Shown here one piece after another: positions 1,209 to 29,586 of a stretch of 64,000 nucleotides of DNA (positions are counted from its first letter, which is position 1; the number at the start of each line of letters is the position of its first letter). The notes beneath the pieces were generated by a model. That model did no database searches. It was not told the origin of the DNA and was given only the letters and a program-made list of their open reading frames with translations. Both the position numbers and the translations under genes were made by a program. The DNA comes from Eledone cirrhosa (taxonomy: Eukaryota). The stretch spans positions 149,916,001 through 149,980,000 of the forward strand of contig OZ024741.1 of assembly GCA_964016885.1 (NCBI GenBank), given 5' to 3'.

Positions 1209-1256
<48 letters not shown>
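1209..1256. repeat. (TATC)n microsatellite, left end of the retrotransposon array
   Basis: Read directly from the sequence. Confidence 0.95.
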
Positions 1257-1480
1257 CTCTTTCTGTCTGACGCGTGGAACATCGCCGGTAAGCTTTTTTG
1301 TTAATTTCTATACAAAAAACCGAACTAATTGTTTGAAAAACCATAACATTTTGTAGATTAACCCCCAGGCTGAATTGTCAGCTGGGTGGCAATCTTATTT
1401 TTCGCCCCCAAAGGGGAGAAAATTTAATTTGAAATTAATTTGAAAACTGTTTAAAATTTTTGAATATTTTGCCATCAGCT

Positions 1481-1712
1481 ATGGCAAGCGTTCAAGGAAC
1501 GCTAGCGAACGTTGAAGAAGGAAAAAGAAAAGAAATAGACTTTAACGTTGCTAAAATTCTGCCTGTATCGAGGTAGTTAACAACAGAGCTTTGTGTAACG
1601 AAAGTGAAGTAGACAACACAAACAAAATTGAATCGCACAGTGAACCACACAGTATACAACACACTAAAATCAACAGAAAAAACAATTGACACAACTACAA
1701 ACGGAAAACTCG

Positions 1713-1770
<58 letters not shown>

Positions 1771-3541
1771 AATAACTTATACAGAAACAGTCACAAATCA
1801 TAATAATAACGTTACTTCTAACTCCGCATGTATTGGCGTCACCATGGAAACCAATATGAACAACAAGAATAAAAACAAGATCGAACTACACACAGTACAA
1901 CAGACGGAAAAAACAACAGAAAATAAAACCATTGACACAACTACAAACGGAAAACCCGACAACCACAACAACAATAACAATAACAACAACAACAACAACA
2001 CCAAAAAAAACTTTTGTGCAAACAGTCACCAAGACACAAGATTTCACGGATCTCGATATCTCCAATGCGAAACAGATGCTCTCTGAAGCAAAGGAGTTTC
2101 TGACTTTCGGTGAAAATGGGGGATTTCAGATAAACTCACCCCCAGAAATTCGTCTGGAAACATTTCGAAGGATAATTACCTTCAGAATTGTTTCAAATGA
2201 AACAAAAAAACCAGCATTCCTCAGTCAAGGGGAAATTGAGGCAACCTTAATAAAGATATTGCCAGACATTGACTTTATGCAGAGGGCGAAACAGTACGGG
2301 AGTATTTCGGTACTCCTCAAAAGCGAGGCCCTTGCACAAAGATACTCAGTGACGCCAATACTGTCACAAAAATACACCTTTTTCCCTACATACCTGGGAA
2401 AAAGGACACAAAAAATTAGAGTTTCAAACATACCACCAAATATTAATATTTGGTGGATATTGGCAGGATTTTTAGAGGAGAGAAAAGACACTATTCCCTC
2501 CATAAAAAAGTCCATCAGACACACCTGGTCTGGTACAAATTTGGAGATTCTGGTGCAAATGAGCCCGGAAAGAATCTCCAAAATACTAGAAAAAGTGATG
2601 GTGGACAACAACAGCCACATAAACATTGTAGTTGAGGGACGAAAACCACATTGTTTTCGTTGCAATAACACCACACACCTAAAGGCCTCCTGCCCTTTAC
2701 AAACACGCTCAACCAAAATAATACAAAAGAAAACACTGTTACCAACACCAACACCAAAGCAACCACCACAAGTACAACGACTGACGAAACGGGCAACCAC
2801 ACCAAAACAAACAGACACTCAACAACAACAGAAAAAAACAGAAACAACACCCTGAAGAACACAGCCCCACTCCATCCCACTCCATCAAACACTCCCACAA
2901 ACACACACACCGAAACACCACCACCACACAACATACCCCTACCCCACACACCTGACGATGATTATTCATCGACGGATGAAGCTGCTTCTCCTTCTTTAAG
3001 TGAAGAAGAGGGAGAGCCGCGGAAATCTAAAAAACAAAAAAAGAGACACCACAAAACCCCCAAAACTCCAAACACCAACACACACCCACAGACACAAACA
3101 AAAACACAAACAACACCATAGTCAAACATCCCCCTACCAGCAAAACCAACACCAACACCACCCCAAACACAAGCACCCACCATAAAAAGAAAACTCCCGG
3201 ACGAACAACAAACTAAAACAACACAACAAAAACATAAACAACAATACGCTTACATCAACACAAATAACAAGAGTTTGATGGAGGTCATCTCCCAAAACCC
3301 CAAGGTGGAGACGGAGGGGAAAACTTTCGTCAAAGCAGAATCGTCTCAACACCTTAAACTTATAAGGGTTTCTATGGAAACCTATAATGACCTAAAAAAT
3401 AAATTTTCACAGGACGTGGGCAACCCCTGCCACAAACCCATCAACCGCGTCCTGTTAAAATGTTTCCCCACCCCACCCAACACCCCATCCAGCACCTAAA
3501 TGGAGATTGAACAACCCGATCTCCAGGAAACGAAAAGGTAA
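1481..3541 (+). pseudogene. Copy 1 ORF1 (gag-like, CCHC zinc knuckle), disrupted
   Basis: CFRCNNTTHLKASC in ORF 1932-2855; Asn- and Pro/Thr-rich linkers; C-terminal block DVGNPCHKPINRVLLK; ends MEIEQPDLQETKR*; several stops and frameshifts. Confidence 0.8.
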
Positions 3542-3582
3542 GTGCACCTTTCGTCCTTTTTCTCCAACTCTTCTTCACCAAC

Positions 3583-6500
3583 ATGGCTAGTTTACGAGTT
3601 GGAACCGTGAATGTGCGTGGTCTAGGGATGCCCTCGAAACAGGGCCAACTTTTAAACGACCTTAGGTCACACAGTATGGATGTGATAGCCATCACCGAGT
3701 CCAGGATCCACAACAGGCAGCAACTACCCCCTACCTTCGGCGACTGTGAGATCTACGCATATCTCTGTCAGCCAGGAGGTGGAGGTGGAGTGACTGTCAT
3801 GTTTCGGAAGAACCTGGACGTCGGAGTACAGCAAGTATACTTGGACCCGGAGGGTAGACTGGTAGTCCTAGACGTGAACAGTATCGGAGGTGGAGCCTTC
3901 AGACTGGTGGCCGTTTATGCCCCGACCAGGCAATCACAATCACGGCCAGACTTCTTTAAGCGTCTAGAGTCTTTTCTGGGAACGTCTCGCTCCTTACTTT
4001 TAGTGGGGGACTGGAATGGTATCCTAGATGCACGATCGGAATACGTGGGAGCATGTCCCAGTAGAGCGGGGTGCAACAGCCTCAAAACTTTAATCGGCCA
4101 ATTCCAACTGGCCGATAGGTATCGACTGGATTTCCCGACTGCACCACAGTGGACGTGGGCAAACCGCAGTGGGACATCTAGATCGTATTTAGATAGGTTC
4201 TTCATTAGAGAAAGGGACAAGGAGATGTTAAGCTATCCACGAATGCACATGGTTGCCTATTCAGATCACAAGTTAGTCGTCTGCTTAGTCAACCGTGATA
4301 GAATACATAGACAGGGTCCCGGATACTGAAAGCTGAATGTATCGTTGTCGGCACGTAAAGCTTACAGTGAACGGATAAGTAGACTAGTCAAGCAACAGTT
4401 AACGGGAGCCATCGTCAACAATAGATGGTGGTAGTCTCTCAAGAAAGCAATTAGAATAGAATCGATAGGGTATAGCAGAGAGTTAGCCTTAGAGAAAAAC
4501 AGAATAGAAAGAGAACTAGTAGCCAAGGTAGAGGAGGCACTTAGTGGCAACGCGGCTAGAGTGTTAGCGTCGAGAACGGCACTGGACCAGTTCTTCGATG
4601 CGAAACACGAAGGCAGCGTGGTCAGAAGCAAAACACGTGCTCTAGGAAACGAAGGAGCGAAAGCTGTCAGCTGGGCCCGAGTGGCGGAGGCAACAAGTGG
4701 CAACAAGTCCACGATTCGGTCTTTGAAAGACCAAAACGGACGCGTGCTACTTGACCCCAAGCAAATGTGCGCAGCCTTTCAGCGGCACTTTGCGCGACTG
4801 TTTGAGCAGAACGACGGTGAGCCGAACGGGGCAATGGATTTTAGTTCATACCTCGACGGCCTGCCGCGTCTCTCGAACACGGACGCCGAGTTCTGCGAAA
4901 GACCGATTACAGACACTGAGATACGGGACGCTCTGGGCCGCTGCGGGAAACGCAAGTCACCCGGTCTAGATGGTCTACCCTACGAATTTTACATAGGCAT
5001 GCCGGACTTGTTCTCTGGCGTCCTCGAAGCTGTCTACTGCAATTGGCAGCAGAACGGGAGAATTCCCAGTTCTGCAGGCAAGGGCGTAGTAACGCTGATC
5101 AGGAAAGACAAGAACAAGGGGGACGAAATTAACAACTTCAGGCCCATAACTTTGCTCAACACAGAGTTAAAGATTTTGGCCAAGGTGCTAGCGACGAGGT
5201 TGGCGCTTGTCGTCGAGAACCTGGTAGGGAAAGCGCAAACGTGTGAAATCCCGACCAGGTCCATACACGGCAACCTCCACCTCATGCGATACATCATAGA
5301 GAGGGTGGGTAGTAAACTCGGCTTCGGTGGGGCTCTGATCAACTTGGATAAGTCTAAGGCATTCGATAGGGTCGACCATCGAGACTTGGAAGCGGTTCTC
5401 AAGACGGCCGGTTTCGGGCCCGTGTTCAGAGGATGGATCGAGGCGATGCACACCAGCATCTGCTCGAGGGTCAAGGTGAACGGCTACCTATCGGAGCCGT
5501 TCGCAATCACGCGTTCCATACGACAGGGGTAGCCTCTCTCCTCCATTCTGTATGTATTGACTCTAGAGCCACTACTGCAGAAATTGGAGCTGTTGCAGGG
5601 CATCCCTCTGTCATCTACTACCGCTTGACTGTCGCGCCTTGTCCCCGTGAACACCTCGCCAAGATGGAATGCATGCTCTTCCAATTTCTGTGGAAGAAGC
5701 AGGCTCCGCTGGTGAGGAGATCCGTCTGCTGCCAGCACCCTTTCAACGGAGGGCTGGGAATGCCGTGGCTGATGATGCGCAAACATGCGCTGAGGCTGCG
5801 GCAACTCCAGGTATTCCTCACCGACCCACAACCGGTGTGGGCACCGTTTGTGAGACAGGCTTTCCCACAGCTCGTCTCGCTGACGGAGCTGCAGTACTGG
5901 GTGAAGAAAAGACTGAAAACGATGGGCGCCTGGCACATTGAATGCGCTCAGGCGCTCACAGTCCTCTGGCAAGCGGGCGCAGCAATCAGTGGAGACTCCA
6001 CTTTGACATTCTATAGAGGGATTGTACGTTACAAGGGAGACGACGTTCTCGGAGAGACTCTGGGCGTCGAAGACGATGATCTCACCAGTCTGTTTGGTAG
6101 GACTTTCCGCCCGGGACCTATGGACAACTTCCAGAGGTCCCTGGTCTGGTAGTGCTACCGAGGAGCTCTACCGGTTCGTGACAAGATCTACAGGCACGGA
6201 CGCCCCGACAGGGATCCTTCCAAGAGGACGTGTGCAAGATGCGCGCAGGACATTGAAACAGTCCTGCACGCAATTGTACACTGCCCGGGCGTAACCGACC
6301 TGTGGAACTATGTGGAACAACTGCTGTCGCGTATGGGACAAATCCAGTTGACTGCCGAGTCCATAGTAAGGATCAAACCGCCAGACTCTTTCAAAAAACG
6401 AAAGAGAGGCGGTTTTTCTATGTACGGTGGCTATGGTGAAAGAAGTTATATGGTGGACGAGATTGAGAGGACTGAGGACAGATGCCTTTCTTTCCGGACA

Positions 6501-6648
6501 ACAATTGATTCCCTTCTTTAAGTATCACTTTAGAAGGAGAATCAGGGTGGAGAGAGAGGCACTGCACCCCAGTACATTTACTGAAAGGTGGGTGAATGAA
6601 GCGAAAATGGCCCGAGTGATTGGGCCTTCTCTGTTTATAAGCCTGTAG
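3583..6648 (+). pseudogene. Copy 1 ORF2: APE endonuclease - reverse transcriptase - C-terminal zinc finger, disrupted
   Basis: NVRG, GDWN, YLDR, SDH (APE); PGLDG, FRPITLLN, DKSKAFD, IRQG (RT); in-frame stops; deletion at ~5610 removes the YADD region. Confidence 0.92.
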
Positions 6649-7139
6649 GTTGAGGAAGAGAACAAAAGGAAGAAAGGAGCACTTGCACAACACGCTCCTG
6701 GAGTTGAGGGTTGTTCTATCGACGGGGTATTAAACAACCCATTTGTGGCGCTTCCCCCCTACTGGGGATTTCGATTGTTGTAATTGTTTGTTTTTATATT
6801 TTTTACACGACTGTATGTAAAATCTCCGGCATGTCTTTGTATTGTCCCCTTTTCTTGTGCGCCCTTGTGGCTAATAAAGAAATATATTTATCTATCTATC
6901 TATCCATCTATCTGTTTTACTTGAGACGTGTTCCAGTTCGCTGGTAAGTTTTTGTTGATTTTCTAAGTAAGAAATCAAAAATTTATTGTTAAATTTATTA
7001 CTATTTTATAGCTTGACCCCACGTCTGGACTTTCAGACGGTGGGTCAAGTCATCTTCACCCCTCCCTGGGGTGAAATTTTCGTTTGAAAAAAAAATTTCG
7101 CCGGTGAAAAAAAAGTGTAAACAGACCTTGCATTCAGTC

Positions 7140-9032
7140 ATGAACGCTGCGTTCATAACTAGAAGTGATGGAGAGGCGGTAAGAGTGTTAAGCTCGCAGT
7201 CACCTCCTCTCTCCACCTCATTGAAAGACATCGAAAATGTCGTCAGTTTTGAAAACACGATGTCGGACGTTGATTGTAACATCAACACTAACACAAACAC
7301 CAATAACATGCAAAATATAAACAACACCAACCAGAACAACAACAACAACAATAATGACAACAAGAACAACAACAGCAACAATGATAACAACAACACCACC
7401 AACAACAACAGCAACAATGATAACAACAACACCACCAACAACAGCAGCAACAATGATATACAACAACACCAGCAACAATAACAACAACACGAACAACTCC
7501 AAGAACAAGGAAAAGATTTCCTTTGCTCAAACCGTCCAAAAGAAGGAACTGTTCACATACCTTGACATTTCCAATGCTAGGGAAATGTTAAGCGATGCAA
7601 AACAGTATGTAACTTTTGGTGAGAGTGGTGCTTTCAGTATCACTTCTCAACAGTTACGCAGAGAAACTTTTCTAAAAACAGTAATTTTTAGGACTGTTTC
7701 AAATGTGTCGAAAAAACCAGTTCAATTATCCCAAAACGATATTGAACTGGTTCTGAAGAACTCCATGAAGGATATTGCCTTCATCCAAAAAGGGAAACTT
7801 TTTGGAAGCATTTCAGTGTTGTTGAAAGACCAATTGACGGCACAAAAATATTCTGTATCGCCTATTTTCTCCCCCCTTTACACTTTTCCTCCACATATAT
7901 GGGAAAAAGAACACAAAAAATAAAAATTTTGAACATTGCACCAAATGTGAACGTCTGATGGATTCTAACTGGCTTCATCGATTTCGACGAAGACACCATC
8001 ATTTCGGTGGGAAAGTCCTCCAGAGGCATATTCAATGGTACAAGCATGGAAGTTCTGGTCCAAATGAGGCCAGAACGGATAACTAAAATACCCCAACGTG
8101 TGCCTCTGGATGGAATTTTATGTTACCACTGTTTAAGCAGTGGTCATCTGAAGGCTTACTGTCCTCAGTTAACTAAAAAAAAGAAGCACTACTGCCAACA
8201 CCCAAAACAACAACACAACCACCACCACCAACACCACCACCACCACCACAACAACAACAACAACACGCAAACACAACCAAAACAAGAACAACAAACCAAC
8301 CTGCAAGCACAGTCCCACCCAGCACCACTCCACCTAAAACCACTGCAAAAACACCCACAAACACAACAGCTCCCCAAAACATACCCCTTCCAAATAACAC
8401 AGATACCACAACGGACGAGGCCCCCACATCATCACCAAGTGACGATGAGGGAGAGCCTCTCCGTTCGAAAAGAAAGAAGAAAAGACACCACAAGAACAAA
8501 AAAACAACAAACATCACTACAAACATACAACCACCAACACAAACAACACAAACATTACAAACAAAAACCCCCCGTCCCGAAAACAAAACCATGACATCAC
8601 TCCAAACACAAACACCTACAACAAAACGAAAGCTCCCACAAGAACAATAGACAAAAACCACCGCAACACAACAAGAACATTACACATACATAAACAGTAA
8701 AAACAAAACTTTAATGGAGGTCATAACCAACGACCGTTCGGTGAAAACCGAAGGGAGAACTTTTTTGAACTGTGTAGACAAACCTAATTTAAAGATGATT
8801 AGGGTCCTTACGGACACCTATAAGTCTTTAAAGGAAAACTTTCCTAAGGACGTGGGTAATCCTTGTGTTAAACCCATTAACCGCGTCCTTTTAAAAATTT
8901 TCCCCACCCTCACCCCAGACACCCCACCCCACCAAACATCTCCGTCCCCACCCCGCCGGAAACCACCCAGACAACCCCTCTAACACCCCCATGGAAACCG
9001 TGCGGCCTGATCCCCGGGAGACGAAGAGGTGA
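7140..9032 (+). pseudogene. Copy 2 ORF1, disrupted
   Basis: Homologous to copy 1 ORF1 (LDISNAREMLSDAK; CYHCLSSGHLKAYC knuckle; DVGNPCVKPINRVLLK); ends METVRPDPRETKR*. Confidence 0.8.
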
Positions 9033-9066
9033 GTGTTTTCTTCTCTTTTAACTTTTCAGAACCAAC

Positions 9067-9536
9067 ACGGCCAATATAAGAGTTGGATGTGTGAATGTAC
9101 GCGGCCTGGGGATGCCCTGAAAACAGGGCAAACTCTTAAACGACCTCAGGTCGCACAGTATGGATGTAGTAGCTATTTGCGAGTCCAGGATCCACAGCGA
9201 GCGACAGCTGGCCCCCCATCTTCGATGACTTTGAGATTTACGCATCTCTCTGTCGGCCGGGGGGTGGGGGCGGGGTTGCCGTTTTGCTGCGGAAACACCT
9301 TGGCCTCTTAACACAGACGGTACATCTGGACCCGGAGGGTCGACTGGTGGTCCTAGACGTTGACGGTAGTGAAGGTGGAGCCTTCAGGCTGGTGGCCCCA
9401 TCCGGGACACCGCGGCCAGACTTCTTCAAACGTCTAGAGACTTTTCTGGGAACGTCGCTTTCCTTGCTTTTAGTGGGGGACTGGAATGGATTCCTAGATG
9501 CACGTTGGGACTATGTGGGAGCATGTCCCGATAAAG

Positions 9537-9588
<52 letters not shown>

Positions 9589-12511
9589 CATCCTCAAACA
9601 GTTAATCGGCCGATTTGACCTGGCCGATAGATATCGACTAGATTTTCCGACTGTGCCACTGTGGATGTGGACTAATCGTAGCGGAACATCTAGATCGTAC
9701 CTAGATAGGTTCTAGTTAGAAATAAGGATAGGGACATGTTAAGCTGTCCACAAATGTTCATGGTTGCCTATTCAGATCACAAACTAGTGACCTGCATGGT
9801 CAACCTTGATAGAACCCATAGACAAGGACCCGGCTACTGGAAGCTGAACTTGTCGTTACCGACATGCAAAGCCTACAGTAGACGGATTAGCACTTTAGTT
9901 AAACAGCACTTGACAGGGGCCATTGTCAACAACAGATGGTGGTACTCTCTCAAGAGGGCAGTTAGATTAGACTCGTTAGTTTTTAGTAAAGAATTAGCGT
10001 TAGATAGAAATAGAATCGAGAAGGAATTGGTAGATAAAGTAGAAGAGGCAATTAGAAGTGGCAACGTAGCCAGCGTGCTAGCAACGAAAACGGCTTTGGA
10101 CCAGTTCTTCGACGCAAAGCACGAGGGCTGCGTTGTCAGAAGCAAAATACGTGCTCTGGGAAACGAGGGAGCCAAAGCTGTTAGTTGGGCCCGAGTGACG
10201 GAGGCAAAAAGTGGCAACAAGTCCACGATTCGGTTTTTGAAGGACCAAAACGGACGCGTGATACATGAGCCGAAGCAGATGTGTGCGACCTTTCAGCGGC
10301 ACTTTGCTCAACTGTTCGGGCAGGGCGACGCGCCGGGAGGGGCTATGGATTTTGGTCCATACCTCGACGGCCTACCGCGACTCTCGGACAGTGAGGCAAA
10401 GTTCTGCGAAAAGCCGATTTCGGCCGCTGAGATAGGGGACGCGCTGAGCCAATGCGGCAAATGCAAATCTCCAGGTCTCGACGGTCTACCCTACGAATTT
10501 TACGTAGCAATGCCGGACTTATTCTCTAGTCTCCTGGAAGCGGTCTACTGCAACTGGCAACAGAACGGGAGAATTCCCAGTTCTGTGACTGGGGGCGTAA
10601 TCACACTAGTCAGGAAGGACTAGAATAAGGGGGGTGACATAGGCAACTTCCGGCCCATAACTCTGCTAAACACAGAGTTACAGATTTTGGCCAAGGTGTT
10701 GGCAAAAAGGCTGGCGCTTGTCGTCGAAAACCTGGTGGGCGAAGCGCAGACATGCGCAATCCCGACCAGGTCCATACACGACAACCTCCACCTCATGCGA
10801 TACATCATAGAGAGGGTAGGGTGTAAACTCGGCTTCGGTGGGGCCCTGATCAATTTGGATTAGTCTAAGGCTTTCGATAGGGTTGACCATCGTTACCTGG
10901 ATGCGGTGCTCGAGGCGGAAGACTTCGGATCCGTGTTCAGGGGCTGGATTGCTGCAATGCACAACAGCAACATCTGCTCAAGGGTCAAGGTGAACGGCTA
11001 CTTCTCGGAGCCGTTCGATATCACGCGATCCATTCGATAGGGATTCCTTCTCTCCTCCCTTCTGTACGTACTGACTCTCGAGCCACTACTGCGGAAGTTG
11101 GAGCTATTGCAGGGCATCCCTCTGGAACCGGGACTGCGGAAAGCGGCATCGGCCTACGCTGACGACGTGACAGTAATGGTGTCGAGCGCCTCGCAAATCG
11201 AGGAAGTCGGCACCTTACTGAAGGAATACGAAAGGTTCACAGGAGCGAAGCTGAACCGGAACAAGTCCATCGGTTTGCAACTCGGATCGTGGAGAGGCAA
11301 ACCGATGCCTTCCGATGGCGTCGTCGGACGCTGGACGGAAGGACCGGTAAAGCTGCTCGTGGTCTGGTTTGGTCCGGACCTCCAGGTGGAGAAGAACTGG
11401 AACGAGGTGACGGCCAAGGTGTTTGCACTCACCCAGAAGTGGGCCGAGTGCAAACTATCCTTGAAAAGTCGAGCGGAGGTGGCGAACACTTTTATAGCGT
11501 TCGCCATCTACTACCGCTTGACCGTCGTGCCTTGTCCAGCCAAAACGCTCACCAACATGGAGCGCGCGCTCTTCCAATTCCTTTGGAAGAGGTGGGCTCC
11601 TTTGGTGAGAAGATCCATCTGCTGCCAACACCCTTCCAACACACTGCCAACACGCGCTCAGGCTGCGGCATCTCTACGTATTCCTCACCGGACAACCGGT
11701 GTGGGCCCCGTTTGTGAGGCGAGCCTTCCCACGACCCGTCTTGCTGACCGAGCTGCAGTCCTGGGTCAAGCAAAGACCGAGGAAAATGGGCGAATGGCAC
11801 ATCGAATGTGCTCAGGCGCTCACAGCCCTCTGGCAAGCGGACCCGGCGATCAGTGGAGACTCCACTGCGTCATTCTATAGAGGGTTGATCCGCAGCAAGT
11901 GCGACGATGTGCTCGGTGAAACTCTAGGCGTAGAGGAAGACGAACTGGCCAGTCTGTTCGGTAGGACCTTCCGCCCGGGACCGATGGACAACTTCCAAAA
12001 GTCCCTGGCCTGGCAGTGCTACCGAGGAGCTCTACCAGTTCGTGACAAGCTCTACAGACATGGGCGCCCGGGCAGGGACCCTGTAAAAAAGATATGTCCG
12101 AGATGCGTGCGAGACGAAGAAACCGTCGCGCACGCATTCATACACTGCCCGGGCGTCACTGACCTGTGGGGATATGTAGAACGACTATTGTCGCGGGTGG
12201 GACCAATCTAGTTGACCACCGAGTCCATTGTCATGATCAAACCGCCACCCTCCTTCAAAAACGAAGGAGAGGCGGTTTTCCTTTGTGTGATAGCTATGGC
12301 GAAAGAGGTTGTATGGTGGACAAGGTTGAAAGGGCTGAGGTCAGACACCTTTCTCTCCGGCCAACAACTGATTCTTTTTTTCAAATACCACTTTGGAAGA
12401 AGAATCAGGATGGAGAGAGAGGTGCTGTACCGCAGCAAGTTTTATGAAAGGTGGGTGAAAGTGGCGAGAATGGCCCGAGTGAATGGGCCTTCTCTCTATA
12501 TCAGCCTGTAG
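9067..12511 (+). pseudogene. Copy 2 ORF2 (APE-RT-ZF), disrupted; start codon position reads ACG
   Basis: GDWN, SDH, PGLDG, YADD, CPRC..H....C motifs across several ORF fragments; (GT)n expansion at 9541-9586. Confidence 0.92.
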
Positions 12512-12749
12512 ATTGAGGAAAAGGAGGAGGAGAGGAAAGGAGTACAAGCTCTTCGTACTCCTGGAGATGAGGGTTGCACATTTTTTCGGGGGTATGTGTT
12601 ACCCATATAAACTGTCTCCCTCTATTGGGGAAAATCGACTAACTTTTAAATTCCATCTGTGATAACATTTTACACGTTTTTATTGTATGTAAACTTCCCC
12701 CTTTGTATTTGTCCCCTTCTTTTGTGCCCCTGTGGCTAATAAAGAAATA

Positions 12750-12784
<35 letters not shown>

Positions 12785-12994
12785 TTATCTCGGAGAAGAT
12801 TGACGTGTTTTTGTTTCGCTCCTGCATTTTGTCGGAATTTATTACGAGAAGCGGTAGGTTTGTTTAAGAAACTTGTTATTTGTTGTGTTTAACCCCTCGC
12901 CTGGGCCTGCAGACGTTGGGTAAAATAAATTTCGCCCCTTTTTGGGGCGAAATTTAATAGTTATAAGTTGTCGATAAAAAGTCGTTTAGTGACA

Positions 12995-14822
12995 ATGGGC
13001 GCCATTAATACGACACATGCCACGCCCCCCAAGGAAAGTGATAGAGAGAAGGTAGCAGCACAACGCTGTAAACCTTCCCTCCTCACTCCCGCAAAAGACA
13101 CCACGAAATCAAAAGAAAAAATTGTGGAAATGGGTGAAAACCCCCAAAGTAACAATTACACAAACAAGAACAACAATGACAATAACAACACAACCAACAA
13201 CAGCAACAATGACAATAACAACATAACCAACAACAGCAATAATGACAACACCAACAAAGGAAAAAAGCAAGCCAACACGAATAACAACAACAACAATGAT
13301 AACAACACGAAAGAAAACGGACCCACATCTGCAGACTCCTTCGCACAGGCGGTCCGAGAAACGCAGGCATACAAGGCACTGGACATCTCGAATGCCAAGA
13401 AATTGCTGAAAGAAGCAAGGAATTGTGTAACTTTCGGGGAAGGTGGGTAATTCACAATTACCTCCCCCGAAGAAATTAGAAGGGACACAGTCCTCAGGAC
13501 CGTAATCTTTAGGACAGTTTCCAACACGACTAGGAAACCGGCTCAATTGTCCCAAAGTGAAATTGAGCTGGTTCTAAGTAGTGCTCGAAAGGATATCGCT
13601 TTCATACAGAAAGGGAAACTGTATGGAAGCATATCTGTTTTAATGCAAGATGAATTGGCGGCACGGAAATATTCTGTGTCGCCAATTGTATCCAAAGCAT
13701 ACACCTTTTTCCCCACATATTTGGGGAAAAGAACTCAAAAGATAAAAATCTCGGGCATCAGGCCAAATGCGAGCATTTGGTGGGTGCTAACGGGATTCTT
13801 AGAAGATGAGGACACAATCCTTTCGATAGGCGAATCCACCGGGGGCGTATTCGGCGGTAATGGCCTTGAAGTTCTGGTCCAAATGAGACCAGAACGGATA
13901 ACAAGAATACCGCAGCGTGTGTCCCTGGATGGAGTCGCCTTCATAAACATTTCTGTTGAGGGCAGGCGACCTTCATGCTACCACTGTTCAAGAAGAGGTC
14001 ACCTGAGGGCTTCCGGTCCCCTTTTAAATGCCCCCCCAAAAAGACGCTTCTGCCCACTCCATATACACCACCACCACCACCACCACCACCACCACCACCA
14101 CCACCACCACCACCACAACAACAACACGAAAAGATAACAACACAAGACACTGTCCCACCCAACCCCTCCCCACCTAAAACAAATACAAAAGCAACCACAA
14201 CAAAACCCCAAAATATACCCCTCCCCAACAACACGGACGCGGACCCCTTATGAACGTCACCCAGTGACGAAGAGGGAAAACCCTTTCAACCTGTAAAAAG
14301 AAAGAAAAGAAGGCACCCCATTAACAAAAATACAACAAACACACAACCACCAGCACAAACAGAACAAACATCATAAACAAAAAAACCCACCCCTCCCGAA
14401 AACATAACACATACTACAAAACGCAAACACACACAAGAATAACAAACAAAAACAATCACAACACAAAAACAGTATACATACATCAACACAAACAACAAAC
14501 ACTTGTGCAAACAATAGACAAAGACCCTTCGGTGGAAACCGAAGGGAAAATGTTCACCAATGCGGCGACTAAAGCGCATTTAAAAAAGATTAGGGTCCCA
14601 AGGGACACCTACGCAATGCTCAAACAGAACTTTCCCGAGGACGTGGGAACCCCTGTACTAGACCTAGCAACCGCGTCCTCTTGAAATGTTTCCCCACCAA
14701 ACACCCCCACCCCACCACACACTGATGTCCCCACCACATCCCTAACCACCACCCCACCAAACAACCCCTCCAACAACCCCATGGAAATTGTGCAGCCTGG
14801 TCCCCAGGAGAAGGACAGGTAG
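12995..14822 (+). pseudogene. Copy 3 ORF1, disrupted
   Basis: LDISNAKKLLKEA; CYHCSRRGHLRASG (last Cys lost); ends MEIVQPGPQEKDR*. Confidence 0.8.
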
Positions 14823-14844
14823 GTGTCTTTTCCTTTTTCTCCAC

Positions 14845-17800
14845 TCTGGGCCTCGCAACACGGAATGTACACCTGGACCCGGATGGTCGACTGCTGGTTC
14901 TAGACGTAGGTAGTAGTGAAGGTGGAGCCTTCAGGCTGGTGGCAGCGTATGCCCCATCTGGGACACCGCGACCGGACTTCTTCCAACGCCTAGAGACATT
15001 TCTGGGAACGTCTCGCTCCTTGCTTTTAGTGGGGGACTGGAATGGTATCCTGGATGCACGTTGGGACTATGTAGGGACATGTCCCGATAGAGGGGTGTGT
15101 AACAGCCTCAAACGGTTAATCGGCCGATTTGATCTGGCCGATAGATATCGACTAGATTTTCGGACTGTGCCACGGTGGACGTGGACTAATCGCAGCGGAA
15201 CATCTAGGTCGTACCTAGATAGGTTCCTAGTTAGAAATAAGGATAGGGACATATTAAGCTGTCCACGAATGTTCATGGTTGACTATTCGGATCACAAGTT
15301 GGTGACCGGAGTGGTCAACCTTGATAGAACCCATAGAGAAGGACCCGGTTACTGGAAGCTAAACTTGTTCTTACCGACAAACAAAGCTTATAGTAAGCGG
15401 ATTAGCACTCTAGTTAAGCAGCGGTTGACGGGAGCAATTGTCAACAACAGGTGGTGGGGCTCTCTCAAGAGAGAAATTAGAATAGAAACAATAGGTTTTA
15501 GTCAGGAATTAGCATCAGATAGGAATAGAACTGAAAGGGAATTAGATAGCTAAAGTAGAAGAAGCGATTAGGAGGGGCAACGTGGCCGGCGTGCTGGCGT
15601 CAAGAACGGCCCTAGACCAGTTCTTTGACGCGAAGCACGAGGGCTGTGTTGTCAGGAGTAAAATACGTGCTCTGGGTAACGGGGGAGCCAAAGCTGTTAG
15701 CTGGGCCCGAGTGACAGAGGCAAAAAGTGAAAACAAGTTCACGATTCAGTCTTTGAAGGACCAGGATGGACGTGTGATCCTTGAACCTGAGCGGATGTGC
15801 GCGGCCTTTCAACGGCGCTTTGCACGACTGTTCGGGAAGGGCAGCGGGCCGGGTGAGGCCATGAATTTCGGTCCATACCTCGACGGTCTGCCGCGGCTCT
15901 CGGACGGGGAGTCAAAGTCCTGCGAAAGGCCGATTTCAGCCGCTGAAATAGGGGAAGCGCTGAGCCAATGCGGCAAACGCAAATCTCCCGGTCTCGATGG
16001 TCTACCATACAAACTGTAAGTAGCGATGCCGGACTTGTTCTCCGATCTCCTCGAGGCGGTCTACTGCAACTGGCAACAGAACGGGAGAATACCCAGCTCT
16101 GTGACCAAGGGCGTAGTCACGCTGGTGAGGAAGGACGATAACAAGGGGGATGACATAGATAACTTCAGGCCCATAACTCTGCTAAACACAGAGTTAAAGA
16201 TTTTGGCCAAGGTGTTAGCGAAGAGGTTGACGCTTGTCGTCGGGAACTTGGTGGGAGAAGCGCAGACATGTGCAATGCCGTCCAGGTCCATACACGACAA
16301 CCTCCACTTCATGCGATACATCGTAGAGAGGGTAGGGAACGAACCCGGCTTAGATAGGGCCCTGATCAACTTGGATCAATCTAAGGCGTTCGATAGGGTC
16401 GACCATCGGTACCTGGATGCGGTGCTTGCGGCGGCAGGCTTCGAACCCGTTTTCAAGGGCTGGATTGCTGCAATGCACAGCAGCAACACCTGCTCGAGGG
16501 TCAAGGTGAACGGCTACCTCTCGGAGCCGTTCTAAATCGCGTGATCAATTCGATAGGGATGCCCTCTCTCCTCCCTTCTGTATATGCTGGCTCTCGAGTC
16601 ACTACTGCGGAAGTTGGAGCTATTGCAGGAATCCCCTTGGAACCGGGATTGCGGAAAGCGGTCTCGGCCTACGCCGATGACGTGACAGTAATGGTGCCGC
16701 GCGCCTCGGAAATCGTGCAGATCGGCACCTTACTGGAGGAATACGAAAGGTTTACAGGAGCCAAGCTGAACCGGGACAAGTCCGTCGGTTTGCAACTCGG
16801 AACGTGGAGAGGCAAACCGATGCGCTCCGACGACGACATCGGACGCTGGACGGAGGGACCGGTGAAGCTGCTCGGGGTCTGGTTCGGATCGGACCTCCAG
16901 GTGGAGAAAAACTGGGACGAGATAACGGGCAGGGTGTTTGCACTCGCCCCAAAATGGGACGAGTGCAAACTATCCCTGAAAGGTCGAGCGGAGGTGGCGA
17001 ACACTTATATAGCGTCCGTCATCTACTACTGCTTGACCGTCGTGCCTTGCCCAGCGAAAACGCTCACCAAAATGGTGCGCGCGCTCTTCCGATTCCTTTG
17101 GAAGAAGCGGGCCCCTTTGGTGAGAAGATCCATCTGCTGTCAACACCCTTCGAACGGAGGGCTGGGGATGCCGTGGCTGACGATGCGTAGACACTCATTA
17201 AGGCTACGGCACCTCCAGGTATTCCTCACCGGTCAGCCGGTGTGGACCCCTTTTGTGAGGCGAGCCTTTCCAAGACTCATCTCACTCACCGAGCTGCAAT
17301 CCTAGGTCAAGCAAAGACCGAGAAAAGTGGGCTTCTGGCACATTGAATGTGCCCAGGCGCTCACGGCCCTTTGACAAGCGGATCCGGCAATCAGTGGAGA
17401 CTCAACCTCAACATTCTATAGAGGACTGGTGCGCAGCAAGTGCTACGACGCTCTCGGAGAGGCTCTGGGCATGGAGAAAGACGAGCTAGCCAGTCTGTTC
17501 GGTAGGACGTTTGGCCCGGGACCGATGGACAACTTCCAAAAGTCCCTGGCTTGGCAGTGCTACCGAGGAGCTCTACTCGTTCAGGACAAGCTCTACAGAC
17601 ACAGGCGCCCGGGTAGGGACCCCTCGAAGAAGATCTGTCCGAGATGCGTGCGTGACGAGGAAACCGTCGCGCACGCATTCGTACACTGCCCGGGTGTTGC
17701 TGACCTGTGGGGCTATGTGGAACGACTATTGTCGCGGGTGGGACCAATCCGGTTGACCACCGAGTACATTGTCACGATCAAACCGCCTCCCTCCTTCAAA

Positions 17801-18052
17801 AACGAAGGAGAGGCGGTTTTCCTCTGTGTGACAGCTATGGCGAAAGAGGTTGTATGGTGGACTAGGTTGAAATGGCTGAGGTCAGACACTTTTCTCTCCG
17901 GCCAACAACTGGTCCTTTTTTTCAAGTATCATTTTAGAAGAAGGATCAAAATGGAGAGAAAGGTGCTCTACCTCAGCAAGTTTTATGAAAGGTGGGTGAA
18001 AGTGGCGAGAATGGCCCGAGTGAATGGGTCTTCTCTCTATATCAGCCTGTAG
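14845..18052 (+). pseudogene. Copy 3 ORF2 (APE-RT-ZF), N-terminus deleted, disrupted
   Basis: Inter-ORF spacer is joined directly to LGLATRNVHLDP; GDWN, SDH, DQSKAFD, YADD and CPRC motifs are present. Confidence 0.92.
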
Positions 18053-18300
18053 GTGAGAGAGGAGGAGAAGGAGGAGAGGAAGGGAGCACCCGTTCTTTGT
18101 GCTCCTGAGGAGGAGGGTTGCACATTTTTTTCGGGGGTGTGTGCGACCTACGTCAACGCCCTCTCCCTATTGAGGACTTCGATTGTTGAATTTGATTTGT
18201 TATATGTTTTTACACGTCCTTTAAAATGTATGTAACCCCCCTCCCCCCTTGTATTTGTCCCAATCTTTGATGACCTGGTGGCAAATAAATAGAAAGTTAC

Positions 18301-18370
<70 letters not shown>

Positions 18371-18372
<2 letters not shown>

Positions 18373-21300
18373 AAAGAGGACGTGGGTCCCCCCTGCGTCG
18401 GGTCCATTAATCGTGTCCTTCTAAAAAACTACCCCTCCCCCTCCCCAAACACCCACACAACTTCAAACACCCCAACCACACAACACACTGATGCCCCTAC
18501 ACTTCCACAACCCCCCTCCCCCCCACCCAACCCCCCCCCACCCTAATGGAAATTGTGCAGCCCGATACCCGGGACGCAGAGAGGTAAGTGCCTTTTCTCT
18601 TCACCACCAACATGGCTATGCTAAGAGTAGGCTGTTTAAATGCGCGTGGCCTGGGCTCAACTTGGAAGAAGCAATGCTTCTAAATGACCTCAGGTCACAA
18701 CGTATAGATGTGATGGTTATTTGCGAGGCCCGGATCAGCAACGTGCGACAGCTGGCCCCCACCTTTGATGACTTTGAGATGCACGCATCTCTCTGTCAGC
18801 CCGGAGGTGGGGGTGGGGTTGTCGTTCTGCTGCAAAAACATCTGGGTCTCGCAACACAGATGGTACATTTGGACCCGGAGGGTCGACTAGTGGTTCTGAA
18901 CCTTGGCAGTGGTGAAGGCGGAGCGTTTAGGTTGTTAGCCGCCTACGGCCCTTTCGGGTCAATGCGGCCGGACTTCTTCCATCGTCTGGAGACTTTTCTA
19001 GGGACGTCCCGCTCCTTGCTATTAGTGGGGGACTGGAATGGTATCCTAGATGCACGCTGGGACTACGTAGGGGCCTGTCTCGATAGAGAGGGGTGTAATA
19101 GCCTCAAAGGGTTAATCGGTCGATTTGATCTGGCCGATAGATATCGACTAGATTTTCCGACTGCGCCAACCTGGACTTGGGCAAATCGTAGCGGATCATC
19201 TAGGTCGTACCTAGATAGGTTCTTAGTTAGAATTAAGGATAAGGACTTTTTAAGTCGTCCAAAAATGCGCATGGTTGGCTATTCAGACCACAAGTTAGTG
19301 ACCTGCATGGTCAACCTTGACAGAACTCATAGACAGGGACCCGGTTACTGGAAGCTCAACTCGTCCTTACCGGCAAGTAAGGCTTACAGGGACCGGATTA
19401 GCACTTTAGTTAAGGAGCGGTTGACGGGCGCCATCGTCAACAGCAGGTGGTGGGGATCTCTCAAAAGAGAGATTAGAGTAGTCTCTATAGAATTTAGTAA
19501 GGAGTTAGCCTCAAATAGAAATAGGAAGGAAAGGGAGTTGGTAGATAGTGTAGAAGAGGCAATTAGAAGCGGCGACGTGGCCAGAGTGCTAGCGTCGAGA
19601 ACGGCCCTGGGCCAGTTCTTCAACGCGAAACACGAAGGCTGCATCGTCCGAAGCAAAATACGTGCTCTGGGAAACGAGGGGACCAAAGCTGTTAGCTGGG
19701 CCCGCGTGACAGAAGCCAAAAGAGGGAGCAGATCCACTATCCGGTCTTTGCGAGACCAGGATGGACGGGTGATCCTTGAACCTAAGCAGATGTGCGAGGC
19801 TTTTCAAAAGCACTTTGCCGGATTGTTCGGAAGAGGCGAGGAGCCGGTTGGGGATGTGGACCTCGGTCCATACCTCGACGGCCTGCCGCGTCTCTCGGAC
19901 AGGGAGGCGAAGTCCTTCGATGAGCCGATTTCAGCCGCTGAGATAGAGGACGTGCTGAGCCAATGCGGCAAACGCAAATCCCCGGGTCTCGATGATCTTC
20001 CATACGAACTATATCTAGCTATGCCGGACTTGTTCCCCGATCTCCTCGAGGCGGTCTACTGCAACTGGCAACAGAACGGGAGAATTCCCTGTGCTTTGAC
20101 CAAGGGCGTAGTCACGCTAGTGAGGAAGGACGAGAACAAGGGGGACGATATAAATAATTTCAGGCCCATAACTCTGCTAAATACAGAGTTACAGATTTTG
20201 GCCAAGGTGCTAGCAAAGAGGTTGGCGCTTGTCGTGGGCAACCTGGTGGGAGATGCGCAGACATGTGCTATCCCGTCCAGGTCCATCCACGACAACCTCC
20301 ACCTCATGCGATACATCATAGAGAGGGTTGGGAACGAACCCGGCTTTGGTGGGGCCCTGATCAACTTGGATCAATCTAAGGCATTCGATAGGGTCGACCA
20401 TGGTTACCTGGATGCGGTGCTAGCGGCGGCAGGCTTCGGACCCGTTTTCAGGGGCTGGATCAATGCCATGCACAGCAGCCGCATCTGCTCTAGGGTCAAG
20501 GTGCTCCGAGAGGTAGCCGTTCGAAATCGCGCGGTCCATCCGACAGGGGTGCCCTCTCTCATCCCTTCTGTATGTAATGACTCTAGAGCCACTGCTGCGG
20601 AAGTTGGAGTTGTTGCAGGGCATCCCGTTGGAACCGGGATTGCGGAAAGCGGTGTCGGCCTACGCCGACGACGTAACAGTAATGGTGTCTACGGCCTCGG
20701 AAATCGGGGCGATCGGCACCTTACTGGAGGAGTACGAAAGGTTTACAGGGGCTAAGCTGAACCGGGACAAGTCGATCGGTCTGCAACTCGGCACGTGGAG
20801 GGGCAGATCGATGCCCTCCGATGGCGTCGTCGGGCGCTGGACGGAGGGCCCGGTGAAGTTGCTCGGGGTCTGGTTCGGACCGGACCTCCAGGTGGAGAAA
20901 AACTGGGGTGAGGTAACGAACAGGGTGTTTGCACTGACCCAGAAGTGGGCCGAGTGCAAACTGTCCCTGAAAGGTCGGGCGGAGGTGGCGAACACTTATA
21001 TAGCGTCCGTCATCTACTACCGCCTGACCGTTGTGCCTTGCCCAAGGGAAACGCTCGCCAAAATGGAGCGCGCACTCTTCCAATTCCTTTGGAAGAAGCG
21101 GGCTCCTATGGTGAGGAGATCCATCTGCTGTCAACACCCTTCGAAAGGAGGGCTGGGGATGCCGTGGCTAATGATACGTAAACACGCATTAAGGCTACGG
21201 CACCTCCAGGTATTCCTCTCCGGTCAACCGGTGTGGGTCCCGTTTGTGAGGCGAGCCTTTCCTAGACTCGTCTCACTCACCGAGCTGCAATCTTGGGTCA

Positions 21301-22266
21301 AGCAAAGACCGAGAAAACTGGGCGCCTGGCACACCGAGTGTGCCCAGGCGCTCACGGCTCTCTGGCAGGCGGACCCGACTGTCAGTGGAGAATCCACCTC
21401 GTCATTCTATAGAGGGCTGGTGGTTAGCAGGTGCGACGACGCCCTCGGAGAATCCCTAGGCATGGAGGAAGACGAACTGGCCAACCTGTTCGGTAGGACA
21501 TTCAGCCCGGGACCCATGGATAACTTCCAGAGGTCCCTGGCCTGGCAGTGTTACAGAAGGACTCTGCCCGTTCGAGAAAGGCTCTACAGACACGAGCGCC
21601 CGGGTAGGGACCCCTCGAAAAAGATCTGTCCCAGATGCGTGTGCGACGAGGAAACCGTTGCACACGCATTGGTACACTGCTTGGGCATTGCTGATCTGTG
21701 GGGCTATGTCGAACAACTGCTGTCAAGGGTGGGACCGATGCGGTTGACCACCGAGTCTATTGTAACGATCAAGCCGCCTCCCCTCTTCAAAAACGAAGGA
21801 GAGGCGGTGTTTCTGTGCGTAATAGCCATAGCGAAAGAGGTTGTATGGTGGACGCCTCTGAAAGGACTGAGGTCAGACACCTTTCTCTCTGGCCAACAAC
21901 TGGTCCGTTTCTTCCGATATCATTTCGGAAGAAGGATCAGGATGGAGAGAGAGGTGCTGCACCCTAGCCGTTTTTATGAAAGATGGGTGAAAGTGGCGCG
22001 AATGGCCCGTGTGAATGGACCTTCACTCTACATCAGACTATAGGTGAGGAAGATGAAAGACCAAGGGAGCACCCCTTCTCTGTGCTCCTGAGGAAAAGGG
22101 TTGCACACTTTTTTTGAGGATTTTGTTATAAATTTTATTCTGTTATATTTTATTTTATTTTTATATTTTGTTATTGCCTCCTCCTTATTGAGGACGCCTT
22201 GTTTTGTAAACTCCCCCCATTGTACTTGTCCCACTTTTGATGCCCCGGTGGCAAATAAAAGAAACA
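18371..22266 (+). mobile_element. Tx1/L1-clade retrotransposon copy 4 (5'-truncated within the ORF1 C-terminus)
   Basis: Begins at the EDVGPPC..INRVLLK block right after (TATC)n; AATAAA at 22254; (TATC)n 22267-22291. Confidence 0.92.
18612..22043 (+). pseudogene. Copy 4 ORF2 (APE-RT-ZF), lightly disrupted
   Basis: ATG at 18612 (MAMLRVGCLNARG); frameshift near 18670; micro-inversion and frameshift at 20501-20523; ORFs 18491-20755 and 20577-22043 carry all motifs. Confidence 0.93.
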
Positions 22267-22493
22267 TATCTATCTATCTATCTATCTATCTTGATAGAGT
22301 AAGACACGCTTCACATCGGCTCCGCTATTCCATCGGGATTTACCCTTACTATTGTAAGTACCGGATAAATTTTTCAGTGCAACACATTTGGAACACTAAC
22401 CCCTGTTTTTTAGGGAAACATTTTTGCATTTACCCCCTTTTAAGGGGGTAAAATAAATATCTATTTTTGCCGAAAAATTTCTTTCTTGGCAGC

Positions 22494-27300: not shown

Positions 27301-27760
27301 CTACAGACACGGGCGCCCGGGCAGGGATCCCGCGAAAAAGATCTGTCCCAGATGCGTGCGCGACGAGGAAACCGTTGCGCATGCACTGGTACACTGCCCG
27401 GGCGTTGCCGATCTGTGGGGCTACGTCGAACGACTGCTGTCGCGTGTGGCGCCGATTCGATTAACCGCCGAGTCTGTGGTGAACATCAAGCCGCCTCCTC
27501 CCTTCAGAAATGAAGCAGAGGCGGTCTTTCTGTGCGTAATAGCCATGATGAAAGAGGTTGTGTGGTGGACGCGCCTGAAAGGACTGAGGTCGGGTGACTT
27601 TCTCTCCGGCCATCACCTGGTTTACTTCTTCCGATACCACTTCGGAAGAAGAATCAGGATGGAGAGAGAAGTGCTTGGTCCCAGACAGTTTTATGAAAAA
27701 TGGGTGAAAGAAGCGAGAATGGCCCGTGTAAATGGGCCTTCTCTCTACATTGTTCTGTAG
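24319..27760 (+). CDS. Copy 5 ORF2: APE endonuclease, reverse transcriptase, C-terminal CCHC zinc finger; frameshift at G-run 24517-24528
   Basis: LRVGCLNARG, then a 1094-codon ORF with GDWN, YLDR, SDH, PGLDG, FRPITLLN, DQSKAFD, IRQGCPLS, YADD, CPRC-x-H-x-C; start position reads ATA. Confidence 0.93.
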
Positions 27761-27991
27761 GTGAAGAAGTGAAGAGGAAAGGGGGAGCGCCTCCTCTCTG
27801 GGCTTCCCCCGCGAAAAGAGTTGCACACTTTTCGGGGGTATGTGCAATCCCCAACACGCCCCCTCCCTTTTGAGGACTTTTTATTGTTATATTATTATTG
27901 TTATTCCTTTTTTCTTTACTCGATTTATGTAAACTCCTCCACTGTGTAAATGTCCCCTTCTTTTGTGCCCTCGTGGCAAATAAATAGAAAT

Positions 27992-28050
<59 letters not shown>

Positions 28051-28057
28051 GCCCCCC

Positions 28058-29418: not shown

Positions 29419-29586
29419 TATCTATCTAGCCCCCCTCTCTCTCTATATATATATATTGTACAAGAGTGTTGTTTATCTTAGTTGTTACGTAGTAACTTCC
29501 TGATGATAACCACTTCACTACTGGATGGACGTGCATGGACACCGGCATATCACAATGATTGCATAACTGCACCAATGATTGCATAA

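What the first reader, a model, noticed from the sequence alone, without database searches (positions are those of the whole stretch)
3538..6648. ORF2 framed as an intron: splice donor on the ORF1 stop, acceptor on the ORF2 stop
Seen: ORF1 ends AG|GTAAGT (3538), AG|GTGAGT (9029), AG|GTAGGT (14819) and AG|GTAAGT (18584). The stop varies (TAA/TGA/TAG) but always keeps a donor consensus. Copy 5 keeps AG|GTAAGT (24284) although its frame has slipped. A pyrimidine tract follows the donor, with no AG before the ORF2 start in copies 1, 4 and 5. ORF2 ends in a pyrimidine-rich run plus an invariant TAG in all six copies (6648, 12511, 18052, 22043, 27760, 29179), e.g. CCTTCTCTCTACATTGTTCTGTAG|G. In copies 3 and 4 joining gives AG+GTGA = Arg-stop, regenerating the ORF1 C-terminus exactly; in the copy 1 and copy 2/6 types it adds a short basic tail (LRKR..). 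Known analogue: the spliced gag-only RNA of Drosophila copia. Inference: a LINE that makes an ORF1-only subgenomic mRNA by splicing out all of ORF2, setting the ORF1:ORF2 ratio and possibly spawning ORF1-only non-autonomous retrocopies.
Basis: partly seen in the sequence, partly recalled or inferred. Interest (0 to 1): 0.9.

Follow-up and report, generated by a model that had tools for sequence, protein, structure and literature searches.

The report
Jumping gene with ORF2-spanning intron
A young family of LINE jumping genes keeps a splice-donor signal at the end of its first gene in every subfamily examined, and likely splices out its whole second gene to make an RNA for the first protein alone, a trick known from copia-type elements; no RNA was available to test this, and no copy with that exact deletion was found in the genome.

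Summary
The window holds six tandem L1/Tx1-type LINEs inserted in (ATCT)n. The donor is real. G|GTR(A/G)GT plus a 72-84% pyrimidine tract lies at the ORF1 end in all ~16 subfamily states found in the genome (ORF2 proteins 66-97% identical). It occurs in all three reading phases, so it is kept independently of the stop. Two hybrid lineages join one element's whole 5'UTR-ORF1, exactly at the donor, to a CAG in another subfamily's ORF1 tail, which is the shape of a splice product that then retrotransposed. The acceptor is less certain. TAG is not invariant: two young subfamilies use TAA. Copies 1-4 and 6 have a competing AG 7 nt upstream, and the tract is not constrained at synonymous sites. Yet donor phase co-varies with the first stop after TAG (10 of 16 states, permutation p=0.007, post hoc, related rows), and one prediction made in advance held. 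RNA could not be tested. Best reading (0.55): a copia-like whole-ORF2 intron in a LINE. Main rival: a U1 site that blocks early polyadenylation.

The parts
1256..29420 (+). Tandem array of six L1/Tx1-type LINE copies separated by (ATCT)n target repeats; copies 1, 2, 3, 5 full length, copies 4 (from ~18372) and 6 (from ~28051) 5'-truncated
   Evidence: Pfam RVT_1, Exo_endo_phos, zf-RVT on ORF2
3535..3568 (+). Copy 1 donor AAG|GTAAGT (GT at 3538, phase 2, ORF1 stop TAA 3539-3541) and pyrimidine tract
3583..6648 (+). Copy 1 ORF2 (broken by stops and a ~350-nt deletion), inside the proposed 3111-nt intron 3538-6648
6622..6653 (+). Copy 1 acceptor zone: AAG at -7 (ends 6641), TAG stop 6646-6648, then GT-TGA (phase-1 stop 6651-6653). 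A phase-2 join at TAG runs 28 codons; at -7 it stops after 2
9026..9066 (+). Copy 2 donor GAG|GTGAGT (9029) and spacer ending TTTTAACTTTTCAG
12485..12516 (+). Copy 2 acceptor zone: CAG at -7, TAG 12509-12511, then AT-TGA
14816..14850 (+). Copy 3 donor CAG|GTAGGT (14819)
18026..18056 (+). Copy 3 acceptor zone: CAG at -7, TAG 18050-18052, G-TGA (phase-2 stop)
18540..18561 (+). Cryptic acceptor CTAAT...GTGCAG|CCCGA (CAG 18558-18560) in the copy-4-type ORF1 tail; in 16 genomic matches another subfamily's ORF1 is joined to this point exactly at its donor
18581..18612 (+). Copy 4 donor GAG|GTAAGT (18584), tract and ORF2 start
22017..22047 (+). Copy 4 acceptor zone: CAG at -7, TAG 22041-22043, G-TGA
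24281..24322 (+). Copy 5 donor GAG|GTAAGT (24284) in phase 0; ORF1 reads through it to TAG 24320-24322, which overlaps the ATA standing in place of the ORF2 ATG
27734..27772 (+). Copy 5 acceptor: no AG at -7, top-scoring of 264 AGs by a simple pyrimidine score, TAG 27758-27760, phase-0 stop TGA 27770-27772
29153..29184 (+). Copy 6 acceptor zone, TAG 29177-29179, GT-TGA
1285..1296 (+). Second donor-like site in the 5'UTR (GT at 1288; also 6944, 12854, 22354), followed by T-rich sequence

Best explanation
These LINEs keep a 5' splice site at the end of ORF1 in every subfamily examined, and the spliceosome likely joins it to an AG at the very end of ORF2, which would remove the ~3.46-kb ORF2 as one intron and give an ORF1-only mRNA that ends in the normal 3'UTR and poly(A) signal. 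Shown: the donor and its pyrimidine tract in all subfamilies and all three phases; genomic hybrids joined exactly at the donor to a CAG; a stop within 3 codons after a join at the ORF2 TAG in 10 of 16 subfamily states; no retrocopy of the ORF1-only form. Inferred: U1 binds the donor (the U-rich tract as a TIA-1-type helper and the purine-rich 3'UTR start as an exonic enhancer are recalled analogies); the acceptor is a short zone rather than one invariant base (TAG in most subfamilies, the AG at -7 in the copy-1/2 types, lost or moved to a weak GAG at -13 in the two TAA subfamilies); spliced RNA supplies excess ORF1p, while unspliced RNA makes ORF2p and is the only template copied, because ORF2p acts in cis. 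When read-through or nested tandem copies put another element downstream, the donor occasionally uses a cryptic CAG in that element's ORF1 tail. That RNA keeps an ORF2 and retrotransposes as a hybrid.
For: Donor in all 11 references, phases 0/1/2, stops at +1, +5, +27, +36, tract 72-84% Y (more subfamilies), across ORF2 proteins 66-97% identical. Not seen in 35 distant L1/Tx1-like loci. Of 39 ORF1 ends not followed by a donor (30 loci read), 16 read AAGAG|CCCGA and 3 read AAGAG|AAACC; both 3' partners follow a CAG in their source subfamily (GTGCAG|, CCGCCAG|). Upstream parts come from two ORF1 lineages ~70% identical and several are full length with their own 5'UTR. Only 1 of ~23 distinct ordinary deletions in held loci has GT..AG ends, and it starts at the donor (L099, one base off). 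Phase covariation: TAG join stops within 3 codons in 10 of 16 states (permutation mean 5.8, p=0.007; collapsed 7 of 9, p=0.026), against 9-17% for any AG. Prediction noted before the test and met: the phase-1 subfamily t2b carries TAG|GT-TGA in 7 of 8 copies. The copy-5 lineage shifted phase 2 to 0, lacks the -7 AG and has a phase-0 stop at +10. An AG at 0 or -7 ranks in the top 14 of ~260 AGs in all 8 TAG references.
Against: No ORF1^3'UTR junction: 0 real of 2,379 t1-t4 ends, 0 for copy-5 type (30 of 30 read unspliced), 0 against 737 t6/t7 ends, 0 of 70 read among 73 t9/t10 non-G ends, 0 real of 3 acceptor-side hits. Human L1 does leave spliced copies at ~2% of full-length insertions (PMC5860796), though those keep ORF2. 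t9/t10, with intact ORF2s and an intact ORF1 in L213, replaced TAG by TAA while keeping the donor. TAG joins in t1, t1b, t2, t2a run 28-50 codons and need the -7 AG to fit; allowing two acceptors was decided after seeing the data. Four-fold sites near the ORF2 end show no pyrimidine excess (30 of 61 vs 0.47); no clear branch point; the ORF2 C-terminus ends at the same residue in two outside relatives (P0003, P0004), so protein constraint can explain the tract. Three other long deletions start at or within 5 nt of a donor without an AG partner (L148, L259, L316), and the two hybrid junctions share a 2-nt AG overlap, so template switching is not excluded. Permutation rows are related by descent.
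Confidence: 0.55

Rival explanations
1. The donor is a U1 docking site that is rarely spliced. Bound U1 would suppress premature cleavage at poly(A) signals in the A-rich end of ORF1, so that full-length bicistronic RNA is made, as the major splice donor does in HIV-1 and foamy virus and U1 does in EVD. The TAG is then just a stop codon, and the hybrids are accidents of an unpaired donor.
For: Donor kept where TAG is lost (t9/t10). An A[AT]TAAA lies within 350 nt upstream of the donor in 8 of 10 references; HIV-1's donor acts on a signal 195 nt upstream (PMC3694450, passage). A second donor-like site lies within 90 nt of the start in most subfamilies, with no spliced copy in the one type searched (3 hits, none spliced). 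No spliced retrocopies. An unpaired donor would readily take cryptic acceptors.
Against: Does not explain the match between donor phase and the first stop after TAG. t2 and t3 have no hexamer within 1 kb upstream; the hexamers lie in A-rich coding sequence and were not tested against chance; ORF2 itself has almost none to protect.
Confidence: 0.25
2. The donor is spliced, but mainly to another acceptor (in the 3'UTR, in a downstream element or a host exon), not to the ORF2 stop.
For: The only junctions seen in DNA use acceptors in another element's ORF1 tail. t9/t10 have a good acceptor, T-run ACACGCAG, 158-178 nt into the 3'UTR.
Against: That 3'UTR AG is absent in the other subfamilies and no copy is joined to it (70 of 73 read). 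The DNA record is biased to RNAs that keep ORF2.
Confidence: 0.1
3. The motif is a translation signal (stop context plus pyrimidine spacer and Kozak-like CACCAACATGG for termination-reinitiation on ORF2) that only looks like a donor; hybrids come from template switching at AG microhomology.
For: The motif always lies 28-46 nt before the ORF2 start. ORF1 swaps without duplication also occur at this point (L084). Non-AG deletions start near donors.
Against: The motif is kept whether the stop is at +1, +5, +27 or +36, and its variants (GTAAGT, GTGAGT, GTAGGT) are the U1-compatible ones. Both recurrent hybrids break at the donor and after CAG. By eye, none of the first 100 of 649 listed control matches shows a long-range join to other element sequence in the 17 nt upstream.
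Confidence: 0.1

Closest known systems
Drosophila copia gag-only spliced RNA (Yoshioka 1990, as described in PMC5580714; passages read)
   Same: An intron of ~3 kb covering the whole enzymatic ORF gives an RNA for the structural protein alone and ends at the normal 3' end.
   Different: copia is an LTR element with one long ORF; here a bicistronic LINE with separate ORF1 and ORF2. Splicing is shown for copia, only inferred here.
Arabidopsis Ty1/Copia EVD shGAG RNA (PMC5580714)
   Same: Conserved donor, with U1 both splicing and blocking early termination; the donor matters more than the acceptor.
   Different: Short intron plus premature polyadenylation, not removal of the whole pol; LTR element.
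Human L1 splicing and SpIREs (PMC5860796; passages)
   Same: Splice sites inside a LINE, and spliced RNAs that keep ORF2 retrotranspose in cis and leave DNA copies.
   Different: The SpIREs described use a 5'UTR donor with 5'UTR or ORF1 acceptors within one element and are dead ends. Here the donor is at the ORF1 end, the recorded junctions are between two subfamilies, and the hybrids went on to multiply.
HAL1 (half-L1) elements (PMC5753468; passage)
   Different: No such copy was found here. The primary HAL1 paper was not held, so whether HAL1s arose by splicing was not checked.
Microsatellite-targeting Tx1 elements Kibi and Koshi (PMC4494074; passages)
   Same: Two-ORF APE-type LINE inserted specifically in a microsatellite.
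   Different: Targets here are (ATCT)n and (ATT)n, not (TC)n/(TTC)n. No splicing is mentioned in the passages read.

Membership tests
L1/Tx1-type non-LTR retrotransposon | ORF2 with APE endonuclease, RT and C-terminal zinc-binding region | tested here: met
   Pfam Exo_endo_phos 4e-8, RVT_1 5e-24, zf-RVT 3e-5; intact 1,143-1,152-aa frames
L1/Tx1-type non-LTR retrotransposon | Separate ORF1 with CCHC zinc knuckle | tested here: inconclusive
   CX2CX4HX4C is visible but Pfam zf-CCHC E=0.015 is below cut-off; no ORF1 homologue in the protein search
Tx1 clade (Kibi/Koshi-like) | Target preference for a microsatellite; frequent 5' truncation | tested here: met
   All 30 3' ends read run into ATCT-type repeat; (ATT)n for t6-t10
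Tx1 clade (Kibi/Koshi-like) | RT phylogeny inside the Tx1 clade | not tested
   No named Tx1 reference set was in the tree; the label Tx1 is from recalled resemblance
copia-like structural-protein-only spliced RNA | Donor at the end of the structural ORF, conserved across the family | tested here: met
copia-like structural-protein-only spliced RNA | Conserved acceptor beyond the enzymatic ORF | tested here: inconclusive
   TAG in 14 of 16 states, TAA in 2; phase match 10 of 16; competing AG at -7
copia-like structural-protein-only spliced RNA | Spliced RNA detected | not testable with these tools
SpIRE-like spliced retrocopy | DNA copy with exact donor-AG junction | tested here: inconclusive
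   Two recurrent exact junctions, but between elements and with 2-nt AG overlap
HAL1-like ORF1-only element | Copies with ORF1 joined to the 3'UTR | tested here: not met
   t8 not searched, t2b only from the acceptor side

The most novel reading that the evidence does not exclude
This LINE clade uses a whole-ORF2 intron as its expression switch, with donor phase and 3'UTR stops co-evolving to keep ORF1p's end short, and the same donor splices between neighbours in tandem arrays, moving an entire promoter-ORF1 module onto another subfamily's ORF2 and founding new retrotransposing hybrids. That would be exon shuffling as a route of LINE 5' and ORF1 replacement.
Probability: 0.4. Interest if true: 0.8.

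Novelty: new variant of a known kind. Interest (0 to 1): 0.62.

Why it matters
LINEs need far more ORF1p than ORF2p and are thought to set this by inefficient ORF2 translation from one RNA (recalled); in human L1, splicing is described as harmful (PMC5860796). A LINE that keeps an ORF2-spanning intron would have reached the copia solution independently. The hybrids suggest a concrete, testable way in which LINEs swap their 5'UTR and ORF1, a long-noted pattern. The family has thousands of near-identical copies with many intact ORF2s, so one RNA-seq data set or RT-PCR settles it. My searches of the held library found no title or abstract start describing this arrangement; subscription papers and Repbase notes are not covered, and no supplements were read.

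Tried and rejected
RNA: no RNA holder listed for copy 5 (4 runs of unknown kind, one study); no reads or contigs were laid, so expression and splicing remain open. ORF1 protein search for a transcript-derived spliced form: no hit. Apparent junction hits rejected: L061 (point mutant); L431/L433 (12-nt slip duplications) and L432 (unrelated purine run); 2.4-2.7-kb spaced copies on C1 (nested insertions then duplicated). chimC2 (L094, L105) not counted as a third event because homologous exchange explains it. 5'UTR intron: no shared acceptor across subfamilies and no spliced copy in type 4; other types not searched. Spacer mini-intron (30-37 nt; good AG in t2, t6, t7): AG absent before the start in t1, t3, t4, t8-t10, frames inconsistent, and probably too short (recalled). 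3'UTR replacement acceptor in t9/t10: no DNA trace. The low-copy hybrid chimC was left out of the permutation; it does not match via TAG (94 codons) but does via -7 (3 codons). The protein tree was the quick version and included one mis-picked row (t1b_L122). Junction patterns miss about 44% of arbitrary partners and, for t9/t10, all partners that begin with G. Earlier scan notes: three look-ups returned nothing.
Full report
What the window is. Bases ~1.26-29.4 kb are six head-to-tail LINE copies separated by (ATCT)n. ORF2 has endonuclease, RT and zinc-binding domains. The closest named ORF2 relative is from Argonauta hians (62%), so the host is probably an octopod (inference). The family is young and large: 2,351 first-look candidates for the copy-5 3' end, the 40 scored all 99-100% identical, and many intact 1,150-aa frames.

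Observation. All five donors and six TAGs are at the stated positions. Corrections are listed under the observation check; the main ones are the long tails in copies 1 and 2 (28 and 50 codons), the competing AG at -7, and TAA stops elsewhere in the genome.

The donor is a real conserved signal. Searching the genome gave further subfamilies: t1-t5 (window types and variants, ATCT targets) and t6-t10 (ATT targets), with ORF2 proteins 66-97% identical. All 11 references tabulated carry a donor hexamer at the ORF1 end followed by a 72-84% pyrimidine tract, while the ORF1 tails before it are unrelated between the main groups. The donor falls in phase 2 (t1-t4, t9, t10), phase 1 (t2b, t6, t7', t8) and phase 0 (t5, t7), with the ORF1 stop at +1, +5, +27 or +36. 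It is therefore kept as nucleotides, not as a stop context. The hexamer is rare elsewhere (34 in 63,495 nt). In 35 distant L1/Tx1-like loci only 4 have any hexamer within 110 nt of the ORF2 start, and their stops are TAG 10, TAA 10, TGA 7 of 27, so the feature belongs to this clade.

Signs that the donor is used. Of 2,379 t1-t4-type ORF1 ends, 39 are not followed by a donor (30 loci read, 9 classed from the listed letters). Twenty are point mutants, small indels or the single deletion L099. Sixteen read AAGAG|CCCGA and three AAGAG|AAACC. In the first class the exon end of one subfamily is joined, exactly at its donor, to the base after GTGCAG in the copy-4-type ORF1 tail (window 18561). In the second a different ORF1 lineage is joined to the base after CCGCCAG in that first hybrid. 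Trees of the two sides disagree as expected for hybrids, and several carry a full 5'UTR and ORF1 from lineages about 70% identical. I count two independent events. Splicing from an upstream element into a downstream one, followed by cis retrotransposition with the downstream ORF2, explains both (inference; cis preference from PMC5860796, passages). Against: each junction shares only 'AG', so template switching is possible, and three other long deletions begin at or near a donor without an AG partner (L148, L259, L316). For: only 1 of about 23 distinct ordinary deletions (34 rows, duplicates and flank artefacts removed) has GT..AG ends, and that one also starts at the donor, one base off; the first 100 of 649 control matches show no such join in the 17 nt upstream (by eye).

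The acceptor. Negative results first. No copy joins ORF1 to the 3'UTR: 1 pattern hit among 2,379, a point mutant; none among the 39 and 8 deviant ends, which also covers the -7 AG; 0 for copy-5 type; 0 against 737 t6/t7 ends; 0 of 70 read among 73 t9/t10 ends; 0 real of 3 acceptor-side hits. t8 was not searched. TAG is replaced by TAA in t9/t10, a derived pair sister to t8 with intact ORF2s. Four-fold sites in the last 8 codons are 30 of 61 pyrimidine against 0.47.

Positive results. Every 3'UTR begins with an out-of-frame stop close behind the ORF2 stop (GT-TGA, TT-TGA, AC-TGA, AC-TAA, GC-TAG, GC-TGG-TGA, G-TGA). I noted that t2b, whose donor is one base shifted, should carry the GT-TGA form; 7 of 8 copies do. 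Across 16 subfamily states a TAG join stops within 3 codons in 10 (permutation mean 5.8, p=0.007; 7 of 9, p=0.026 after collapsing near-identical states; 9-17% for an arbitrary AG). The four TAG mismatches (t1, t1b, t2, t2a) stop after 2 codons if the -7 AG is used, and t9/t10 after 4 if a weak GAG at -13 is used; these rescues are post hoc. Copy 5's lineage shows three linked differences from its sister t4: phase 2 to 0, no -7 AG, and a phase-0 stop at +10; its TAG is the best of 264 AGs by a crude score. Rows are related and the hybrid chimC was left out, so the p-values are indicative only.

Mechanism. Most likely (0.55) ORF2 is a retained or removed intron: spliced RNA for ORF1p, unspliced RNA for ORF2p and copying. 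The main rival (0.25) is U1 binding that blocks early polyadenylation; 8 of 10 references have a poly(A) hexamer within 350 nt upstream of the donor, like the HIV-1 arrangement (PMC3694450, passages). The two can coexist, as in EVD (PMC5580714, passages). I put the chance that the donor binds U1 at all at about 0.9.

Known versus new. It would work like Drosophila copia's gag-only RNA (PMC5580714) but is not a member of that family. Human L1 splicing uses other sites and is described as detrimental. HAL1 is the predicted by-product and is absent here. A recent octopus repeat paper has no occurrence of 'splic' in its main text (PMC13282606). Six searches listed nothing describing a whole-ORF2 intron in a LINE; I saw only listings for those, passages for the six papers cited, and no supplements. 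TIA-1, purine-rich enhancers, minimum intron length and AUG-independent ORF2 translation are recalled, from no call.

Verdict. Observation partly confirmed, interpretation partly supported, retrocopy prediction not supported, and a new lead (splice-shaped ORF1 swaps between subfamilies). New variant of a known kind; interest 0.62 until RNA is read.

Noticed in passing
window 24284-24340; L031-L060: The copy-5 subfamily has no ORF2 AUG in 30 of 30 loci (ATA, once ACA, overlapping the ORF1 stop); the first in-frame Met is ~36 codons in, yet the frame is open for >490 codons in 15 of 30. Non-AUG start, -1 frameshift or trans-mobilisation are all open.
   Followed up: partly
window 1288, 6944, 12854, 22354; L131, L204, L209: Second donor-like GTRAG with T-rich tract 29-64 nt from the element start in most subfamilies although the 5'UTRs are otherwise divergent; weak or absent in t7 and t9.
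   Followed up: partly
window 9029-9066; L204, L207: In t2, t6 and t7 the ORF1-ORF2 spacer ends in the top-scoring AG of the element, just before the ORF2 ATG. With the 5'UTR donor this could give an ORF2-only RNA; not searched.
   Followed up: no
t1-t5 versus t6-t10: Sister groups with ORF2 about 68% identical target different microsatellites, (ATCT)n and (ATT)n: a natural pair for endonuclease specificity.
   Followed up: no
G000:C1:423365098-423418069: At least eight t6 ORF2 starts spaced ~5.84 kb apart on one strand, a long tandem array of mostly intact elements.
   Followed up: no
L084/L427, L091, L127: ORF1 swaps without duplication also map near the ORF1 end; several ORF1 and 5'UTR types ride on the same ORF2 clade.
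   Followed up: partly
window 39300-50700: About 11 kb of low-complexity repeat (CACCACTAGCAC-like units) open in several frames on both strands; not examined.
   Followed up: no
window ~690-880, 29700-29870, 29900-30100, 31900-32090: A recurring ~190-nt SINE-like repeat, often next to the LINE arrays in other loci too.
   Followed up: no
window ~30900-32300 and ~34350-34800: Degenerate fragments that look like other non-LTR elements (by eye).
   Followed up: no
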